Virus record (IMG/VR): IMGVR_UViG_3300027861_000020 | Length of the DNA: 64,000 nucleotides | Direction: 5' to 3' (one strand) | From: a virus | In this document: positions 42,406-50,942 of the stretch, in pieces | Layout of the letters: each line of letters begins with the position of its first letter | How positions within the stretch are numbered: position 1 is the first letter of the stretch | Notes under the pieces: model-generated | What the model was told of the DNA's origin: nothing | Databases searched by the model: none | The model's input: the letters and a program-made list of their open reading frames with translations, nothing else | Made by a program: the position numbers and the translations under genes

Positions 42406-42825
42406 ATGAATACTTATCAATTTACAGTAATGGCTTATGACAAAAATGAAGATAAAGATATTCGAATCATTCTTGGAGAAGCTGATGGCATAGATAAAGA
42501 AGATGCCTTTAAGAATCTTATCGCTGAAAAGGAAATAGATTCTAAGACGATAGATGATGAATATTACAAGATGAATACAGTTAAATCTTCTATTGTATCT
42601 TTTGAAACTAAAGAAATGGAAGATAAAGATATTGATTATGAATTTCTAGCAAAAGAATCTGAAATAGAGATTTTAAAAAATGATAGCAATTTCTACGATT
42701 GGCTATTGGAAAAAGCTCAGGAAGAAATAAGTTGTTGGGATGTTGAGGGGCTTTTTGATTTTGTAAAAGATTCTTTAAATACTGATGATGATGGCATAGT
42801 TGATGACTATAGGATGCAATACTAA
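42406..42825 (+). CDS. hypothetical acidic protein
   Basis: 139 aa; cassette at 42370. Confidence 0.6.
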   Translation: MNTYQFTVMAYDKNEDKDIRIILGEADGIDKEDAFKNLIAEKEIDSKTIDDEYYKMNTVKSSIVSFETKEMEDKDIDYEFLAKESEIEILKNDSNFYDWLLEKAQEEISCWDVEGLFDFVKDSLNTDDDGIVDDYRMQY

Positions 42826-43154
42826 TGATAAATCTATATGTAGATGACGAAAGAACCCCACCGAATGATAATATATATAATTGGGTTGTTGTTAGAAATT
42901 ATCTAGATGCTATTAAAATTCTGGAAGAAGAAGAAGGTAACATTGAAAGGTTATCTTTAGACCATGATTTAGGTAATATTGGGGCAACTGGATATGACAT
43001 AAGCGTTTGGATAGAGGAACAAGTTAGTAAAAGGCAGTATAAAGCTCCTAAGCGTTTATACTGCCATTCGCAGAACCCTGTTGGAAAATCTAAAATCAAA
43101 GCATGTTATCAATCTATAAAAAGGATAGAAAGAGAAAGAGAAACTAATCTCTAG
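42825..43154 (+). CDS. receiver(CheY)-like fold small protein (tentative)
   Basis: 109 aa; LYVDDER ... AIKILEE ... IERLSLDHDLG ... GYDISVWI mirrors beta1/acid pocket, beta3 phospho-Asp and beta4-alpha4 of REC domains. Confidence 0.5.
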   Translation: MINLYVDDERTPPNDNIYNWVVVRNYLDAIKILEEEEGNIERLSLDHDLGNIGATGYDISVWIEEQVSKRQYKAPKRLYCHSQNPVGKSKIKACYQSIKRIERERETNL

Positions 43155-47024: not shown

Positions 47025-47186
47025 TAATAAAGGATATTTTTCTTGATTCGTATAATATATAATTATTAGATACTTGAATCCGATAATTAAGTATCAGTAA
47101 TTTATATATTATAGAGTAATTTTCTTTCCTTTAGTCGGATTCAGGATTGATTTTTGCTCTTTTTTTTCGCGAATAAGGAGAATACA

Positions 47187-48014
47187 ATGAAAAAAGAGAA
47201 TCCGACTATTAAATGTGCTTGTGGATGTGGAGAAGAGTTTAAACTTTATAGTAAATGGGGGAAAAAAAGAAAATATGTAAGTGGGCATAATAGAAGATTA
47301 AATAAGAAACAATCGATTATTAAATGCGATTGTGGATGTGGAGAAGAACTAGAACTTTACGATATAGAGGGAAGAAAACGTAGATATATAAATGGGCATA
47401 ATAATAGAAAATACGATGATCCTAACCAACATAAAAGAGAATGGAATAAAAGAAATAAGAAAAAAAGATATGAAACAAAAAATAATAGATTATTTAGAAT
47501 TAAGTCAGAGTTAATAACTAAAAAAGGAGGATGTTGTTTAGAATGTAAAATTAAATATAATGGAGTTAATTCTAATATATTTGATTTTCATCATGTTAAT
47601 CCTGAAGAAAAACTTTTTAATATAATGCAGGGTCTTAATTGTAAAAGACTAGAAGATGTGTATAAAGAAATAAAAAAATGTATATTATTATGTTCAAATT
47701 GCCATAGGATAAAGCATCATAAATTTATTTTTGATGGTAAAATATACAAAGAAGTTCATATAATAAGAGAAAATTTAATCTTAGAAGCAGGAGATTGCTG
47801 TTCTAAGTGCAAAATTAAACGTAATGAATATAATTCAAGTATATTTGATTTCCATCATACCACCCCCGAAAACAAAAAATTTCAATTAAGTAAAAGCGGT
47901 ATTGCATACAAAAGCATAAAAGATATTAATTTAGAATTTAAAAAATGTATATTATTATGCTCAAATTGTCATCGGATAATAAAACATTCAGAAATCCAGC
48001 AAAAATCAAAATAA
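47187..48014 (+). CDS. tandem-HNH endonuclease-like protein
   Basis: 275 aa; N-terminal CACGCG/CDCGCG zinc knuckles then two repeats FDFHH..NP(E)..N...CILLCSNCHRIKHH (HNH signature); SD AAGGAGAATACAATG. Confidence 0.75.
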   Translation: MKKENPTIKCACGCGEEFKLYSKWGKKRKYVSGHNRRLNKKQSIIKCDCGCGEELELYDIEGRKRRYINGHNNRKYDDPNQHKREWNKRNKKKRYETKNNRLFRIKSELITKKGGCCLECKIKYNGVNSNIFDFHHVNPEEKLFNIMQGLNCKRLEDVYKEIKKCILLCSNCHRIKHHKFIFDGKIYKEVHIIRENLILEAGDCCSKCKIKRNEYNSSIFDFHHTTPENKKFQLSKSGIAYKSIKDINLEFKKCILLCSNCHRIIKHSEIQQKSK

Positions 48015-48055: not shown

Positions 48056-49303
48056 ATGATATACTTTGTAAACAATGAAAATAAAAAGCCTATTAAGTCT
48101 TGGTGCGAGCATGTAGAGCCTGAGGCTATGGCACAAGCCAGTAATCTTGCTAACCTACCATTTCTATATAAATGGGTCGTGCTAGAGCCGGATTGCCACC
48201 TAGGATACGGAATGCCTATAGGAGGAGTTATAGCGTTAGAAAATGCAGTAATTCCTAACGCGGTTGGCGTGGATATTGGATGTGGGATGTCCTGTTTCAA
48301 AACTTCTATAAAATCTAATAATATTTCTAAGCAACAACTAAGAAGTATTATAGAAGAAGTTAAGAAACAAATTCCTCTAGGAATGAGCCACCATTCTCAT
48401 AGTTCTAAGCAATTCAAAGAAAATTTTAAGTATTTTGAAAGAATTGAAGAGAGAATTACGCAGAAACAGTATGCGAGATTTTTTAATATTTTTGGAAAAG
48501 GAAAAACCAAAAAGGAATTGAACAAATATTTTTCTGAAAGTCTTGGTACACTGGGTGGCGGAAATCATTTTATTGAGGTACAAACAGATGAAGAAGATAA
48601 TATTTGGCTAATGATACATTCTGGATCTAGAAATGTTGGTTATAAAGTAGCTAATTATTATCATAAAAAGGCTTTGGAATTAAATAAGAAATGGCACTCA
48701 AATATTTCTAATGATGATTTAGCTTTTTTACCATCAGATTCAGAAGAAGGCATACATTATATTAAAGATATGAATTTTGCTTTGAAATATGCGGAAGAAA
48801 ATAGACGTTTAATAATGGAATCTTTTAAATCTTCTATTACTAAAGTTTTAGGAGATGTAGAGTTTAAAGATGAGATAAATATACATCATAATTTTGCGGC
48901 ATTAGAGAATCATTATGGTAAGAATGTATGGGTACACCGAAAAGGAGCTACATCAGCTAAAAAAGGTCAATTAGGTATTATTCCTGGTTCTATGGGAACT
49001 GCATCTTATATTGTTAAAGGTCTTGGAAATCCAGAATCATTTATGAGTTGTTCTCATGGAGCAGGTCGTATAATGGGTAGAAAACAGGCATCTATATCTT
49101 TAGGCAAGCAAGAATGCGAAAACTCTATGCAGGGTATTGTTTATGATGGTTTTCAAATGATTAAAGATAGAAAAGGTAAAGAGATGTTAGACTTGGGCGA
49201 AGCTCCAATGGCGTATAAGAATATCGATAATGTCATTAAATCAGAATCAGACTTAATAGAGCCTGTTGTTAGGTTAAGACCTTTAGCAGTTATTAAAGGA
49301 TAA
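48056..49303 (+). CDS. rtcB: RtcB-family RNA 3'-phosphate/2',3'-cyclic-phosphate ligase
   Basis: 415 aa; all RtcB signature motifs: GVDIGCGM, GGGNHFIE, HSGSRNVG, NIHHNF, SCSHGAGR; SD AGGAGAATTTATG. Confidence 0.9.
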   Translation: MIYFVNNENKKPIKSWCEHVEPEAMAQASNLANLPFLYKWVVLEPDCHLGYGMPIGGVIALENAVIPNAVGVDIGCGMSCFKTSIKSNNISKQQLRSIIEEVKKQIPLGMSHHSHSSKQFKENFKYFERIEERITQKQYARFFNIFGKGKTKKELNKYFSESLGTLGGGNHFIEVQTDEEDNIWLMIHSGSRNVGYKVANYYHKKALELNKKWHSNISNDDLAFLPSDSEEGIHYIKDMNFALKYAEENRRLIMESFKSSITKVLGDVEFKDEINIHHNFAALENHYGKNVWVHRKGATSAKKGQLGIIPGSMGTASYIVKGLGNPESFMSCSHGAGRIMGRKQASISLGKQECENSMQGIVYDGFQMIKDRKGKEMLDLGEAPMAYKNIDNVIKSESDLIEPVVRLRPLAVIKG

Positions 49304-50327: not shown

Positions 50328-50427
50328 AAAAGGTTTTCCAGATAAAAAAATACCTGAATAATTTTCCAGCAAATAGTATTTTATTATCATTATAATTGTT
50401 GATAATAAAGTTTTAAGGAATAAAAAG

Positions 50428-50622
50428 ATGGCAAAAAAGAAAAGTAAAAGAAGAAGAATTAGTAAAGATATTTTAGATTTAAGAAAACAATTTGAAATGG
50501 ATAATACAGATTCTGTTTTTGTATCACCAAAAGCATTAAAAGAAAAAGTACCTAATAGAAAAGAAAGAAAAGATTATTTAAGAGCAATAGTAAATGAATT
50601 TGATAGAATGTTAGCTGTTTAA
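50428..50622 (+). CDS. basic small protein
   Basis: 64 aa; cassette at 50362, SD TTAAGGAATAAAAAGATG. Confidence 0.5.
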   Translation: MAKKKSKRRRISKDILDLRKQFEMDNTDSVFVSPKALKEKVPNRKERKDYLRAIVNEFDRMLAV

Positions 50623-50629
50623 TTGATAT

Positions 50630-50765
50630 ATGGGTATAGCTCAGTCAGGTTAGAGCGTTCGTTTGACATCCTTAACGTATTTACTAGTAATACGGGAAGC
50701 GTACCATTTAGGATCCTTTGGTACGAGTTGGCGAAAGGTCGCAAGTTCGAATCTTGCTACTCATT
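50630..50765 (+). tRNA. tRNA gene (anticodon region GAC, Val?) carrying a 61-nt insertion in the anticodon loop
   Basis: hand fold: acceptor ATGGGTA/TACTCAT, U8A9, D-arm GCTC-AGTCAGGTTA-GAGC, anticodon stem TTCGT/GCGAA split by 50669-50729, variable AGGTC, T-arm GCAAG-TTCGAAT-CTTGC, discriminator T. Confidence 0.6.
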
Positions 50766-50942
50766 GCTTTTATTGTAGATACTAAATGTATTGAATAACG
50801 AGGCATCATAGTCGTAAGGACTAAAATCTATCCACGCCTACAATCCGAAAGGAAGAGAATAAAAGGGGTAGTTATATTAAGATTTTCCAGCAAATAAGAT
50901 TTTATTATCTTTATAATTGTTAATAATTTAAGGAATAAAAAA

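What the first reader, a model, noticed from the sequence alone, without database searches (positions are those of the whole stretch)
50630..50765. tRNA gene split in its anticodon loop by a 61-nt structured, non-group-I insertion
The fold:
- 50630-50765 folds as a canonical tRNA only if 50669-50729 is removed.
- Acceptor stem ATGGGTA/TACTCAT (one G-U), then U8 A9.
- D-arm GCTC-AGTCAGGTTA-GAGC with G18G19.
- Anticodon stem TTCGT/GCGAA, variable loop AGGTC.
- T-arm GCAAG-TTCGAAT-CTTGC (canonical GTTCGAATC), discriminator T, no encoded CCA.
- The anticodon loop reads TTGACA | insert | G. That gives anticodon GAC (Val) if the insert sits 3' of position 37, the site used by protein-spliced archaeal/eukaryal tRNA introns.

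The insert:
- It folds into two hairpins, CGTATT-TACTAGT-AATACG and CGTACC-ATTTAGGATCCTTT-GGTACG.
- The hairpin loops carry the palindromes ACTAGT and GGATCC.
- Known bacterial and phage tRNA introns are self-splicing group I introns longer than 200 nt. A 61-nt insert cannot be one.

Context and possible explanations:
- An RtcB ligase gene lies 1.3 kb upstream. RtcB joins the 2',3'-cyclic-P and 5'-OH ends made by splicing endonucleases or anticodon nucleases.
- The insert could be an endonuclease+RtcB-spliced tRNA intron in a phage.
- It could be an anticodon-masked tRNA that escapes host anticodon nucleases until processed.
- It could be a tRNA pseudogene hit by a tiny palindromic mobile insert.
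Basis: partly seen in the sequence, partly recalled or inferred. Interest (0 to 1): 0.85.

Follow-up and report, generated by a model that had tools for sequence, protein, structure and literature searches.

The report
Phage tRNA-shaped RNA with two-hairpin insert
A phage carries a conserved tRNA-shaped RNA, derived from a valine tRNA, whose anticodon loop is interrupted and paired up by a 61-base two-hairpin module, and related phages suggest it works as a structured non-decoding RNA, not as a tRNA waiting to be spliced.

Summary
Window 50630-50765 (+) scores 52.3 bits on the Rfam tRNA model (cut-off 29), with about 61 extra bases in the anticodon loop. ARAGORN finds it only in intron mode, as tRNA-Val(GAC) with a 61-nt insert. 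RtcB lies 1.3 kb upstream.

The insert most likely sits between tRNA positions 38 and 39 (50670-50730). A bacterial tRNA-Val has the same 32 bases uninterrupted across that point.

I found three orthologs in related metagenomic phages. The flanks are nearly identical, while the body has diverged with many compensatory changes. All keep the same fold:
- a tRNA body;
- an anticodon stem lengthened by pairing of the former anticodon with the 3' end of the insert;
- a three-way junction with two hairpins.

Two orthologs carry a second version of the module and cannot give a canonical anticodon loop by any excision. Their tRNA tertiary pair 15:48 still covaries.

There is no bulge-helix-bulge motif, no group I core and no splicing endonuclease. 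The insert is single-copy in the window.

Best reading (about 0.5): a non-decoding, tRNA-scaffolded RNA, encoded between a small basic protein gene and another conserved structured RNA. Protein-dependent splicing with RtcB is not excluded (about 0.2). The biochemical function is unknown.

The parts
50630..50765 (+). Whole tRNA-shaped RNA gene (136 nt; no encoded CCA; discriminator U)
   Evidence: Rfam tRNA at 52.3 bits. ARAGORN -i calls tRNA-Val(GAC) with a 61-nt intron. Orthologs L143, L138 and L144 score 48-51 bits. My own model R1 gives 144 bits for the window copy only.
50630..50669 (+). 5' tRNA part: acceptor 5' strand, U8 A9, D arm (GCUC-AGUCAGGUUA-GAGC), anticodon stem 5' strand UUCGU (50658-50662), former anticodon loop UUGACAU (50663-50669)
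   Evidence: The arm is identical to that of a bacterial tRNA-Val (L137).
50670..50730 (+). 61-nt inserted module, between tRNA positions 38 and 39
   Evidence: ARAGORN register. L137 reads ...GACAT-GCGAA... uninterrupted. The two hairpin sequences that make up most of it occur once each in the window.
50663..50667 (+). 5' strand of the extension helix: U32, bulged U33, G34 A35 C36 (the former anticodon)
   Evidence: Pairs with 50727-50730 in the MFE fold. Covariation: U.G/A-U/C-G at 32:38' and C-G<->U-A at 36.
50671..50699 (+). Hairpin 1: CUU/AAG, AA/GG internal loop, CGUAUU/AAUACG, 7-nt loop UACUAGU
   Evidence: MFE fold. Three pairs changed on both sides among the orthologs. The loop YACUAGU is conserved in both module types.
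50700..50725 (+). Hairpin 2: CGUACCA/UGGUACG with a 12-nt loop holding GGAUCC
   Evidence: MFE fold. Three pairs changed on both sides (G-C/A-U/U-A, A-U<->U-A, C-G<->U-A).
50727..50730 (+). 3' strand of the extension helix (GUU G), the last bases of the insert
   Evidence: In L143 the change G->U here compensates U32->A.
50731..50765 (+). 3' tRNA part: anticodon stem 3' strand GCGAA, variable loop AGGUC, T arm GCAAG-UUCGAAU-CUUGC, acceptor 3' strand, discriminator U
   Evidence: The T stem covaries in L138, and the 15:48 pair covaries there as well (G15:C48 -> A15:U48).
50428..50622 (+). 64-aa very basic protein gene ending 8 nt before the RNA; always linked to it
   Evidence: Present directly upstream in all four loci. 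No family hit. Model: three short helices and a disordered Lys/Arg-rich N-terminus.
50766..50871 (+). Conserved structured non-coding RNA directly after the tRNA-shaped gene; probably the same transcript
   Evidence: Nearly invariant in four loci while the neighbouring coding DNA diverges. In the consensus fold all changes fall in loops or compensate: U.G/A-U/C-G in helix CUAUCC/GGGUAG, and GAAA<->GUAA in a tetraloop. No Rfam match.
50363..50397 (+). Promoter-like element upstream of the 64-aa gene (TTTCCA ... TATCAT/TATAAT)
   Evidence: Consensus scan only. The same ~65-nt element recurs before many small genes. No terminator-like site lies between it and 51100.
48056..49303 (+). RtcB RNA ligase (context; link to the RNA not shown)
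   Evidence: Pfam at 393 bits, PHROG 'tRNA splicing ligase'. The named nearest homologs are bacterial.
42825..43154 (+). cREC_REC domain protein (context: cyclic-phosphate processing receiver domain)
   Evidence: PF20274, E 1.8e-23.

Best explanation
The locus encodes a conserved tRNA-shaped non-coding RNA that descends from a tRNA-Val(GAC) gene.

Anatomy:
- A 61-nt module (63 nt in the second type) sits exactly between positions 38 and 39.
- Its last four bases pair with the former anticodon loop (32, 34-36). This lengthens the anticodon stem to 8-9 pairs.
- The rest forms two adjacent hairpins on a three-way junction.

What is shown:
- The tRNA body and this module fold are both maintained by selection in four phage variants.
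- The anticodon loop itself is not maintained.

What is inferred:
- The RNA is transcribed with the upstream 64-aa basic protein gene and the downstream structured RNA.
- It is cut out by the host's tRNA-processing enzymes (RNase P at the 5' end, an RNase Z-type cut after the discriminator) and stabilised by its tRNA shape.
- It acts through the displayed two-hairpin module, not by decoding.
- The most likely role is as a protein-binding or decoy/adaptor RNA in the tRNA damage-and-repair conflict that the nearby RtcB and cREC genes point to. The 64-aa basic protein is a candidate partner.
- The self-complementary hairpin loops (ACUAGU, GGAUCC) would allow loop-loop dimerisation.

The confidence of 0.5 applies to 'non-decoding structured tRNA-like RNA'. 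The specific role is much less certain.
For: - tRNA body: 52.3 bits on the Rfam model, 48-51 bits in the three orthologs.
- Orthologs L143, L138 and L144 have almost identical flanks but a diverged body, all with the same architecture.
- On the structural alignment, 93.7% of 174 cells are standard pairs. 12 of 44 pairs changed on both sides, against 0-2 when partners are slid. The covariation score is 0.405 against 0.18 in shuffles.
- Within-type compensations: window to L143, U32.G -> A-U and G-C -> A-U in hairpin 2. L138 to L144, C-G -> A-U in hairpin 1.
- Thirteen G.U cells make the pairing specific to + strand RNA.
- Type B copies (L138, L144) have CGAUGUU or UGAUGUU on the 5' side and AGAAUUG on the 3' side, so no excision gives a loop with U33. 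Yet L138 still covaries the T stem and the tertiary pair G15:C48 -> A15:U48.
- L138 folds with z = -4.3.
- Descent from tRNA-Val: a 32-nt identity across the junction with L137.
- Discriminator U in all four copies. From established knowledge, A73 is a ValRS identity element in E. coli.
- Constant linkage to the 64-aa gene and the structured 3' RNA.
Against: - There are only four sequences in two lineages, so the independent covariation events are few.
- I fitted the alignment to the structure by hand, using N padding.
- The window's own version is a flawless tRNA-Val once the insert is removed, which is what an intron would look like.
- An anticodon-intron helix is also typical of genuine archaeal and eukaryal pre-tRNAs, so that helix alone does not argue against splicing.
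- No binding partner, target or phenotype is known.
- The link to RtcB is proximity only, and could not be checked in the orthologs because their contigs are too short.
- No expression data exist.
Confidence: 0.5

Rival explanations
1. A true intron-bearing tRNA-Val. [quoted passage not shown] Type B copies would be derivatives that lost decoding.
For: - The exons rebuild a canonical tRNA-Val(GAC), with a 32-nt identity to a bacterial tRNA-Val across the junction.
- The insertion is precise, with no loss of tRNA bases.
- The anticodon pairs with the insert, as in known pre-tRNAs.
- RtcB lies 1.3 kb upstream and a cREC cyclic-phosphate domain protein 7.5 kb upstream.
- L143 still has a 7-nt loop with U33, A37 and a Val anticodon AAC.
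Against: - No bulge-helix-bulge motif yields the mature tRNA.
- No EndA, HEPN or other RNase family appears among 145 ORFs in Pfam, PHROGs or NCBIfam.
- Type B orthologs keep the fold but have no usable anticodon loop.
- The L143 loop changes track the pairing partner. Any change at position 34 keeps Val, so it carries no information.
- The discriminator is U, not A.
- Phage RtcB has an ordinary explanation, repair of tRNAs cut by host anticodon nucleases (established knowledge).
- No short protein-spliced tRNA intron in bacteria or phages turned up in the library searches I ran.
Confidence: 0.2
2. A tRNA-shaped processing signal only. The element exists so that RNase P and RNase Z cut the polycistronic early transcript, separating the 64-aa gene's mRNA from the downstream structured RNA. 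The module has no function of its own.
For: - The gene starts 8 nt after the stop codon of the 64-aa gene and abuts a conserved structured RNA.
- No terminator-like site lies in between.
- tRNA-like punctuation is known elsewhere, for example mascRNA, the MHV68 tRNA-miRNA RNAs and mitochondrial transcripts (established knowledge).
Against: - A pure processing signal does not need a 61-63-nt module whose two hairpins covary, nor a hairpin-1 loop (YACUAGU) conserved across both module types.
- An ordinary tRNA would do the same job.
Confidence: 0.12
3. A dead tRNA gene disrupted by a small palindromic mobile element, or a DNA-level element (a protein operator or recombination site made of two palindromes) that happens to lie in a tRNA gene.
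For: - Both hairpins are near-perfect DNA palindromes with the restriction-site-like centres ACTAGT and GGATCC.
- An HNH homing-type endonuclease gene lies 2.6 kb upstream.
- The sharp boundary between identical flanks and a diverged core suggests cassette exchange.
Against: - Neither hairpin sequence has another copy in 64 kb, even with 3 mismatches, and no similar hairpins occur elsewhere.
- The stems change sequence while keeping complementarity. That is the signature of a folded strand, not of a protein half-site.
- Thirteen G.U cells would be C.A mismatches on the other strand.
- The tRNA body, including the tertiary 15:48 pair, is still under selection.
Confidence: 0.06

Closest known systems
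Archaeal/eukaryal protein-spliced pre-tRNA introns (bulge-helix-bulge, EndA/Sen endonuclease, RtcB ligase)
   Same: - A short insert next to the 3' side of the anticodon.
- The anticodon is paired with the insert.
- An RtcB-family ligase is encoded nearby.
- The exons are otherwise canonical.
   Different: - No bulge-helix-bulge motif.
- The insertion is most parsimoniously at 38/39, not 37/38.
- No endonuclease gene was found.
- The host looks bacterial: T4-type lysozyme, bacterial-type RtcB, sigma-70-like promoters.
- Orthologs lack an anticodon.
Group I introns in bacterial and phage tRNA genes
   Same: They interrupt the anticodon loop of a tRNA gene in a bacterial or phage genome. In the 38/39 register the 5' exon ends in U and the insert ends in G.
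   Different: The insert is 61 nt, against more than 200 nt for group I introns. It has no catalytic core, and there is no Rfam intron hit anywhere in the window. PMC3984707 and PMC13011429 describe only group I introns in bacterial tRNA genes.
Bacterial and phage Y-RNA-like YrlA/Yrn1 tRNA mimics (rsr-yrlA-rtcBA operons; PMC4201824)
   Same: A non-decoding RNA with genuine tRNA D/T-arm architecture, joined to a second functional module, found in phages as well as bacteria and encoded near RtcB.
   Different: - In YrlA the RNA's ends form the Ro-binding stem at the anticodon-arm position, and the 'acceptor' stem is closed by a loop. Here the ends form a normal acceptor stem.
- No TROVE/Ro60 gene appears among the window ORFs.
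- There is no Rfam Y-RNA hit.
tRNA-scaffolded or tRNA-linked RNAs (engineered tRNA scaffolds; MHV68 tRNA-miRNA RNAs; MALAT1 mascRNA)
   Same: A tRNA shape is used to get an attached structured RNA processed and stabilised. Further hairpins follow the tRNA-like unit.
   Different: Those examples are eukaryotic, viral or artificial. Here the module replaces the anticodon loop in a natural phage gene, and no processing has been shown.

Membership tests
tRNA (Rfam RF00005) | Covariance-model score above the gathering threshold over the full model | tested here: met
   52.3 bits against 29, model positions 1-71. Orthologs score 48-51 bits.
tRNA (Rfam RF00005) | 7-nt anticodon loop with U33 and a purine at 37 in the primary transcript | tested here: not met
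   68-70 nt lie between the anticodon-stem strands. A canonical loop is recoverable only by excision in the window copy (canonical) and in L143 (A32, A34), and not at all in L138 or L144.
tRNA (Rfam RF00005) | Conserved tertiary-interaction nucleotides (U8, A14, G18G19, T-loop UUCRAnY, 15:48 pair) | tested here: met
   All are present. G15:C48 changes to A15:U48 in L138.
Functional tRNA-Val | Val identity set (A35, C36 and discriminator A73, as established for E. coli ValRS) | tested here: inconclusive
   A35 and C36 are present in the window copy, but the discriminator is U in all four copies. Phage tRNAs can deviate, and aminoacylation is not testable here.
Protein-spliced (BHB) tRNA intron | hBHBh' motif: two 3-nt bulges separated by a 4-bp helix, with cuts that yield the mature tRNA | tested here: not met
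   A strict search gives four motifs, none producing a tRNA-sized product with an intact cloverleaf. The only near hit needs a mismatch and gives an 8-nt loop in the wrong register.
Protein-spliced (BHB) tRNA intron | Splicing endonuclease (EndA/Sen family) available | tested here: not met
   No such family among 145 ORFs of the window in Pfam, PHROGs or NCBIfam. The rest of the phage and the host could not be examined.
Protein-spliced (BHB) tRNA intron | Removal of the insert in vivo | not testable with these tools
   Needs RNA data.
Group I intron | Catalytic core (P3-P9) and a length of roughly 200 nt or more | tested here: not met
   The insert is 61 nt. There is no Rfam intron match at gathering score in 64 kb, or at E<=1 in 50500-50900.
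YrlA / bacterial Y RNA | Match to the family model and an adjacent Ro60 (TROVE) gene | tested here: not met
   No Rfam hit. No TROVE domain among the window ORFs. Only 64 kb of the phage was examined.
Miniature palindromic mobile element (MITE/REP-like) | Multiple dispersed copies | tested here: not met
   One copy of each hairpin sequence in the window with up to 3 mismatches. No similar GC-containing hairpins elsewhere.
RNA anti-CRISPR / solitary CRISPR-repeat mimic | Hairpin matches a CRISPR repeat of a bacterial genome | tested here: not met
   The degenerate 31-nt pattern for type B hairpin 1 gave 0 hits in 185,579 species genomes. Only exact-pattern matching was possible, and only that one hairpin was tried.

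The most novel reading that the evidence does not exclude
The window's version is a real split tRNA-Val. Its 61-nt intron would be removed by a protein endonuclease that recognises the three-way junction, not a bulge-helix-bulge, and its exons (and perhaps the circularised intron) would be joined by the phage's own RtcB. That would be the first protein-dependent tRNA splicing pathway in a bacterial virus.
Probability: 0.15. Interest if true: 0.9.

Novelty: new variant of a known kind. Interest (0 to 1): 0.62.

Why it matters
The only introns reported in bacterial and phage tRNA genes are self-splicing group I introns. The only well-described non-decoding tRNA mimics near RtcB are the Y-RNA-like YrlA RNAs.

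This element fits neither. It has an ordinary tRNA body whose anticodon loop carries a small, evolving two-hairpin module. The fold is kept by selection in several related phages, in two exchangeable versions.

- If it is a scaffolded effector RNA, it adds a new kind of phage non-coding RNA to the tRNA damage-and-repair arms race.
- If it is spliced, it would extend protein-dependent tRNA splicing to bacterial viruses.

Either outcome can be tested with one small-RNA experiment.

The finding also warns that default tRNA finders miss such genes. About ten other phage tRNA candidates with 20-70-nt inserts turned up in roughly 1.2 Mb of viral contigs, and the Rfam tRNA model supports eight of them.

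Tried and rejected
- **Bulge-helix-bulge motif.** Checked by hand and by script in strict and relaxed forms. Nothing gives the mature tRNA.
- **Known ribozyme or other RNA family in the insert or the 3' element.** No Rfam hit at E<=1 to 5. A hand check for HDV-like/theta topology and for the hammerhead core in the 3' element was negative (reasoning only; motif background from PMC10879173).
- **Mobile palindromic element.** No second copy of either hairpin sequence in the window.
- **CRISPR-repeat mimic.** Type B hairpin 1 starts GUUUU and ends AAAAC, but the pattern had 0 hits in species genomes.
- **Host clue from the tRNA-Val arm.** 0 hits in species genomes. One metagenomic bacterial contig matched (L137).
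- **Close relatives in GenBank phages and IMG/VR.** None. RtcB-based IMG/VR loci are at most 53% identical and lack the element.
- **RtcB next to other insert-bearing phage tRNAs.** None within the DNA held.
- **Model R1 of the whole element on the window plus 99 viral loci.** Only the window copy scores as a full member. L108 scores no better than ordinary tRNAs.
- **Recoded stop codon as the reason for the short ORFs.** Not supported.
- **Structure of the 64-aa protein.** Three short helices at moderate confidence, which is uninformative.
- **Further orthologs through neighbouring small proteins.** Contigs L140-L142 and L145-L148 do not reach or do not contain the element.

Full report
**1. 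The observation**

Window 50630-50765 (+) is the only match to any Rfam family in the 64 kb. It is tRNA at 52.3 bits (gathering score 29, E 2.3e-08). The full model is aligned, and 63 nt sit where two loop positions should be. ARAGORN in default mode finds no tRNA in the window. With introns allowed it reports tRNA-Val(GAC), 75 nt mature, with a 61-nt intron.

The two hairpins appear in the minimum-free-energy fold, which also pairs the GAC triplet with GUU at the 3' end of the insert. The fold energy of this copy alone is not unusual (z = -1.3).

RtcB is confirmed at 48056-49303 (Pfam 393 bits). An HNH endonuclease-like gene lies just before it. A cREC_REC 'cyclic-phosphate processing receiver' domain protein is at 42825-43154.

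**2. What kind of genome this is**

- The window is 29% G+C, and almost all genes are on the + strand. There are many small ORFs that a recoded stop codon does not explain.
- It encodes a T4-type lysozyme and several PHROG families.
- Among the nearest RtcB homologs that carry a name, all are bacterial, at about 57% identity.
- A sigma-70-like promoter element with a Shine-Dalgarno-like AAGGA recurs before many small genes.

I take it to be a large phage of a low-G+C bacterium. This is inferred, not proven. It has no close relative in GenBank phages or IMG/VR.

**3. Where exactly the insert sits**

A metagenomic bacterial contig (L137) carries an ordinary tRNA-Val(GAC) that reads GGTTAGAGCGTTCGTTTGACATGCGAAAGGTC. 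The window has the same 32 bases, split after ...GACAT. The parsimonious DNA-level event is therefore a precise 61-nt insertion between positions 38 and 39 (50670-50730). That is the ARAGORN register, not the canonical 37/38 site. It also shows that the element descends from a tRNA-Val gene.

**4. Orthologs**

Searching with the small neighbouring proteins gave three short metagenomic contigs that carry the same locus:

| Locus | Coordinates | Length |
|---|---|---|
| L143 | 778-913 | 136 nt |
| L138 | 1303-1438 | 136 nt |
| L144 | 349-486 | 138 nt |

- All three hit the tRNA model at 48-51 bits, with 68-70 nt in place of the loop.
- The 30 nt upstream, the first 14 nt of the gene and more than 100 nt downstream are almost invariant. 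The body of the gene is strongly diverged.
- L143 has the window's module (type A) with a few changes.
- L138 and L144 share a second module (type B). L144 combines a type B module with the window's T arm, so the gene is mosaic.

**5. The shared fold**

All four copies have these parts:
- acceptor stem, D arm and T arm;
- a 5-bp anticodon stem;
- a pair between position 32 and the last base of the insert;
- three more pairs between the former anticodon (34-36) and the insert's 3' end;
- a 3-4-nt linker;
- hairpin 1, a helix of 11-12 aligned positions (9-10 of them base-paired) with the conserved loop YACUAGU;
- hairpin 2, with 6-7 pairs and a 12-14-nt loop;
- one A.

Counts on a structure-registered alignment, which I forced by N padding and which therefore leans to the structure:

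| Measure | Structure as given | Controls |
|---|---|---|
| Cells forming standard pairs (of 174) | 93.7% | 38-46% when partners are slid |
| Pairs changed on both sides (of 44) | 12 | 0-2 when slid |
| Covariation score | 0.405 | 0.18 in shuffles |

Compensatory changes also occur within each type:
- Window to L143: U32.G -> A-U, and G-C -> A-U in hairpin 2.
- L138 to L144: C-G -> A-U in hairpin 1.

Thirteen G.U cells make the pairing specific to RNA read from the + strand. L138 folds far better than shuffled controls (z = -4.3). In L138 the T stem has two compensatory changes, and the tertiary Levitt pair changes from G15:C48 to A15:U48. The L-shaped tRNA body is therefore still selected in a type B copy.

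**6. Is it an intron?**

*For:*
- The window's exons make a perfect tRNA-Val.
- The insertion is precise.
- The anticodon-insert helix resembles that of real pre-tRNAs.
- RtcB is near.

*Against:*
- No bulge-helix-bulge motif gives the mature product.
- The insert is far too small for group I, and nothing in Rfam matches.
- No splicing endonuclease, HEPN or other RNase family is found among 145 ORFs in three libraries.
- The discriminator is U in all copies, whereas A73 is a known Val identity element (established knowledge).
- Most tellingly, type B copies have no U33 and no canonical 7-nt loop under any excision (5' side CGAUGUU or UGAUGUU, 3' side AGAAUUG). They nonetheless keep the whole fold under selection.
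- In L143 the loop is AUAACAU. Its two changes either compensate with the pairing partner or improve that pair. Any base at position 34 keeps a Val anticodon, so this says nothing for decoding.

Selection is visible on the fold, not on the anticodon loop.

**7. Best reading**

This is a tRNA-Val-derived, non-decoding, tRNA-shaped RNA that displays a two-hairpin module.
- It always lies 8 nt after a 64-aa very basic protein gene.
- It lies directly before a ~106-nt conserved RNA whose helices are supported by loop-restricted and compensatory changes.
- No terminator-like site separates them, so one transcript is likely (inferred).

Maturation by RNase P and RNase Z-type enzymes, and action through the module as a protein-binding, decoy or adaptor RNA in the RtcB/cREC tRNA-repair context, are inferences by analogy with YrlA Y-RNA-like tRNA mimics (PMC4201824) and tRNA scaffolds.

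The hairpin loops are self-complementary:
- ACUAGU in both types;
- GGAUCC in type A;
- CCGG/GGCC in type B.

That is unlikely by chance (my rough estimate is below 1% for the window) and would allow loop-loop dimerisation. This is untested.

**8. Rivals**

| Reading | Probability |
|---|---|
| Spliced tRNA-Val using RtcB | about 0.2 |
| Pure processing signal | about 0.12 |
| Dead gene, mobile insert or DNA palindromes | about 0.06 |

The last is disfavoured by single-copy status, covariation, G.U pairs and the selected tRNA body.

**9. Comparison with known systems**

The element is a member of none of the families considered: BHB introns, group I introns, YrlA, MITEs and CRISPR-repeat mimics all fail a defining feature (see the membership table). 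It most resembles a tRNA mimic or tRNA-scaffolded RNA in how it probably works. The literature searches found only group I introns in bacterial and phage tRNA genes and no description of this architecture.

**10. Breadth**

Among 120 unrelated IMG/VR loci fetched through a shared T-arm pattern, ARAGORN in intron mode and the Rfam tRNA model flagged further tRNAs with 30-70-nt inserts. One of them, L108, has a Val-like UAGACAU loop followed by two hairpins with palindromic loops. They are heterogeneous, and my model of the window's element does not recognise them as members. In a different phage (L002), a marginal tRNA with a roughly 21-nt hairpin insert lies directly upstream of RtcB. These were not followed further.

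**11. Verdict**

- This is a real, conserved and previously undescribed variant of a phage tRNA-like RNA.
- Its function is unknown, and the splicing hypothesis is still open but less likely.
- Interest: 0.62.

Noticed in passing
window 50766-50871 (orthologs L143 914-1019, L138 1439-1544, L144 487-592): A ~106-nt non-coding stretch right after the tRNA-shaped gene is almost invariant in four phage variants. It folds into a long hairpin, a 5-bp hairpin with a GUAAN pentaloop (boxB-like), a UCC-GNRA-GGA hairpin (GAAA<->GUAA) and a long-range helix CUAUCC/GGGUAG with U.G/A-U/C-G covariation. No Rfam family matches.
   Followed up: partly
window 50428-50622: A 64-aa protein with a Lys/Arg-rich N-terminus (MAKKKSKRRR...) is always encoded 8 nt upstream of the RNA. 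It matches no family. Its N-terminus recalls the arginine-rich RNA-binding motifs of phage N-type antiterminators (a resemblance from memory, not tested).
   Followed up: partly
L144 1-76 and 522-598: The 598-nt contig has an identical stretch of about 76 nt at both ends. The unit promoter / 64-aa gene / tRNA-shaped RNA / 3' element may therefore be tandemly repeated in that phage, or the contig may be a circular assembly artefact.
   Followed up: no
window 42825-43154: A 109-aa protein made of a cREC_REC domain (PF20274, 'cyclic-phosphate processing receiver domain', E 1.8e-23). With RtcB, this suggests an RNA-repair gene set in this phage.
   Followed up: no
window 50335-50427 and 50886-50942, and many other intergenic sites: A repeated ~65-nt intergenic element (TTTCCAGC...TATAAT...TTTAAGGAATAAAAAAATG) precedes many small genes. 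It also recurs in related contigs L138, L140 and L142, so it is presumably a phage promoter plus ribosome-binding site.
   Followed up: no
L002 6077-6166 (IMGVR_UViG_3300018080_000064): In an unrelated G+C-rich phage, a marginal tRNA (33.9 bits) with a ~21-nt hairpin inserted at the 5' edge of a CUUUAAU loop (anticodon UUA, possibly an ochre suppressor) lies about 15 nt upstream of the start codon of that phage's RtcB gene.
   Followed up: partly
L106 1008-1108; L091 1842-1957, 1965-2082, 2091-2217; L065 4284-4390; L129 4690-4809; L108 7141-7267; L029 8202-8346; L117 965-1098; L100 1633-1753: Other viral contigs carry tRNA candidates with 30-70-nt inserts in the anticodon region. Seven pass the Rfam tRNA threshold, and default ARAGORN run on four of these loci (L029, L091, L108, L117) missed theirs. 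The three tandem ones in L091 and the one in L100 share a CAGCAA(U/C) motif. L108 has a Val-like UAGACAU loop followed by two hairpins with palindromic loops (UAGCUA, GUUUAAAC).
   Followed up: partly
window 47154-48014: An HNH homing-endonuclease-like gene sits immediately upstream of RtcB. Such genes can drive local cassette exchange, which might relate to the sharply bounded divergence of the tRNA-shaped gene.
   Followed up: no
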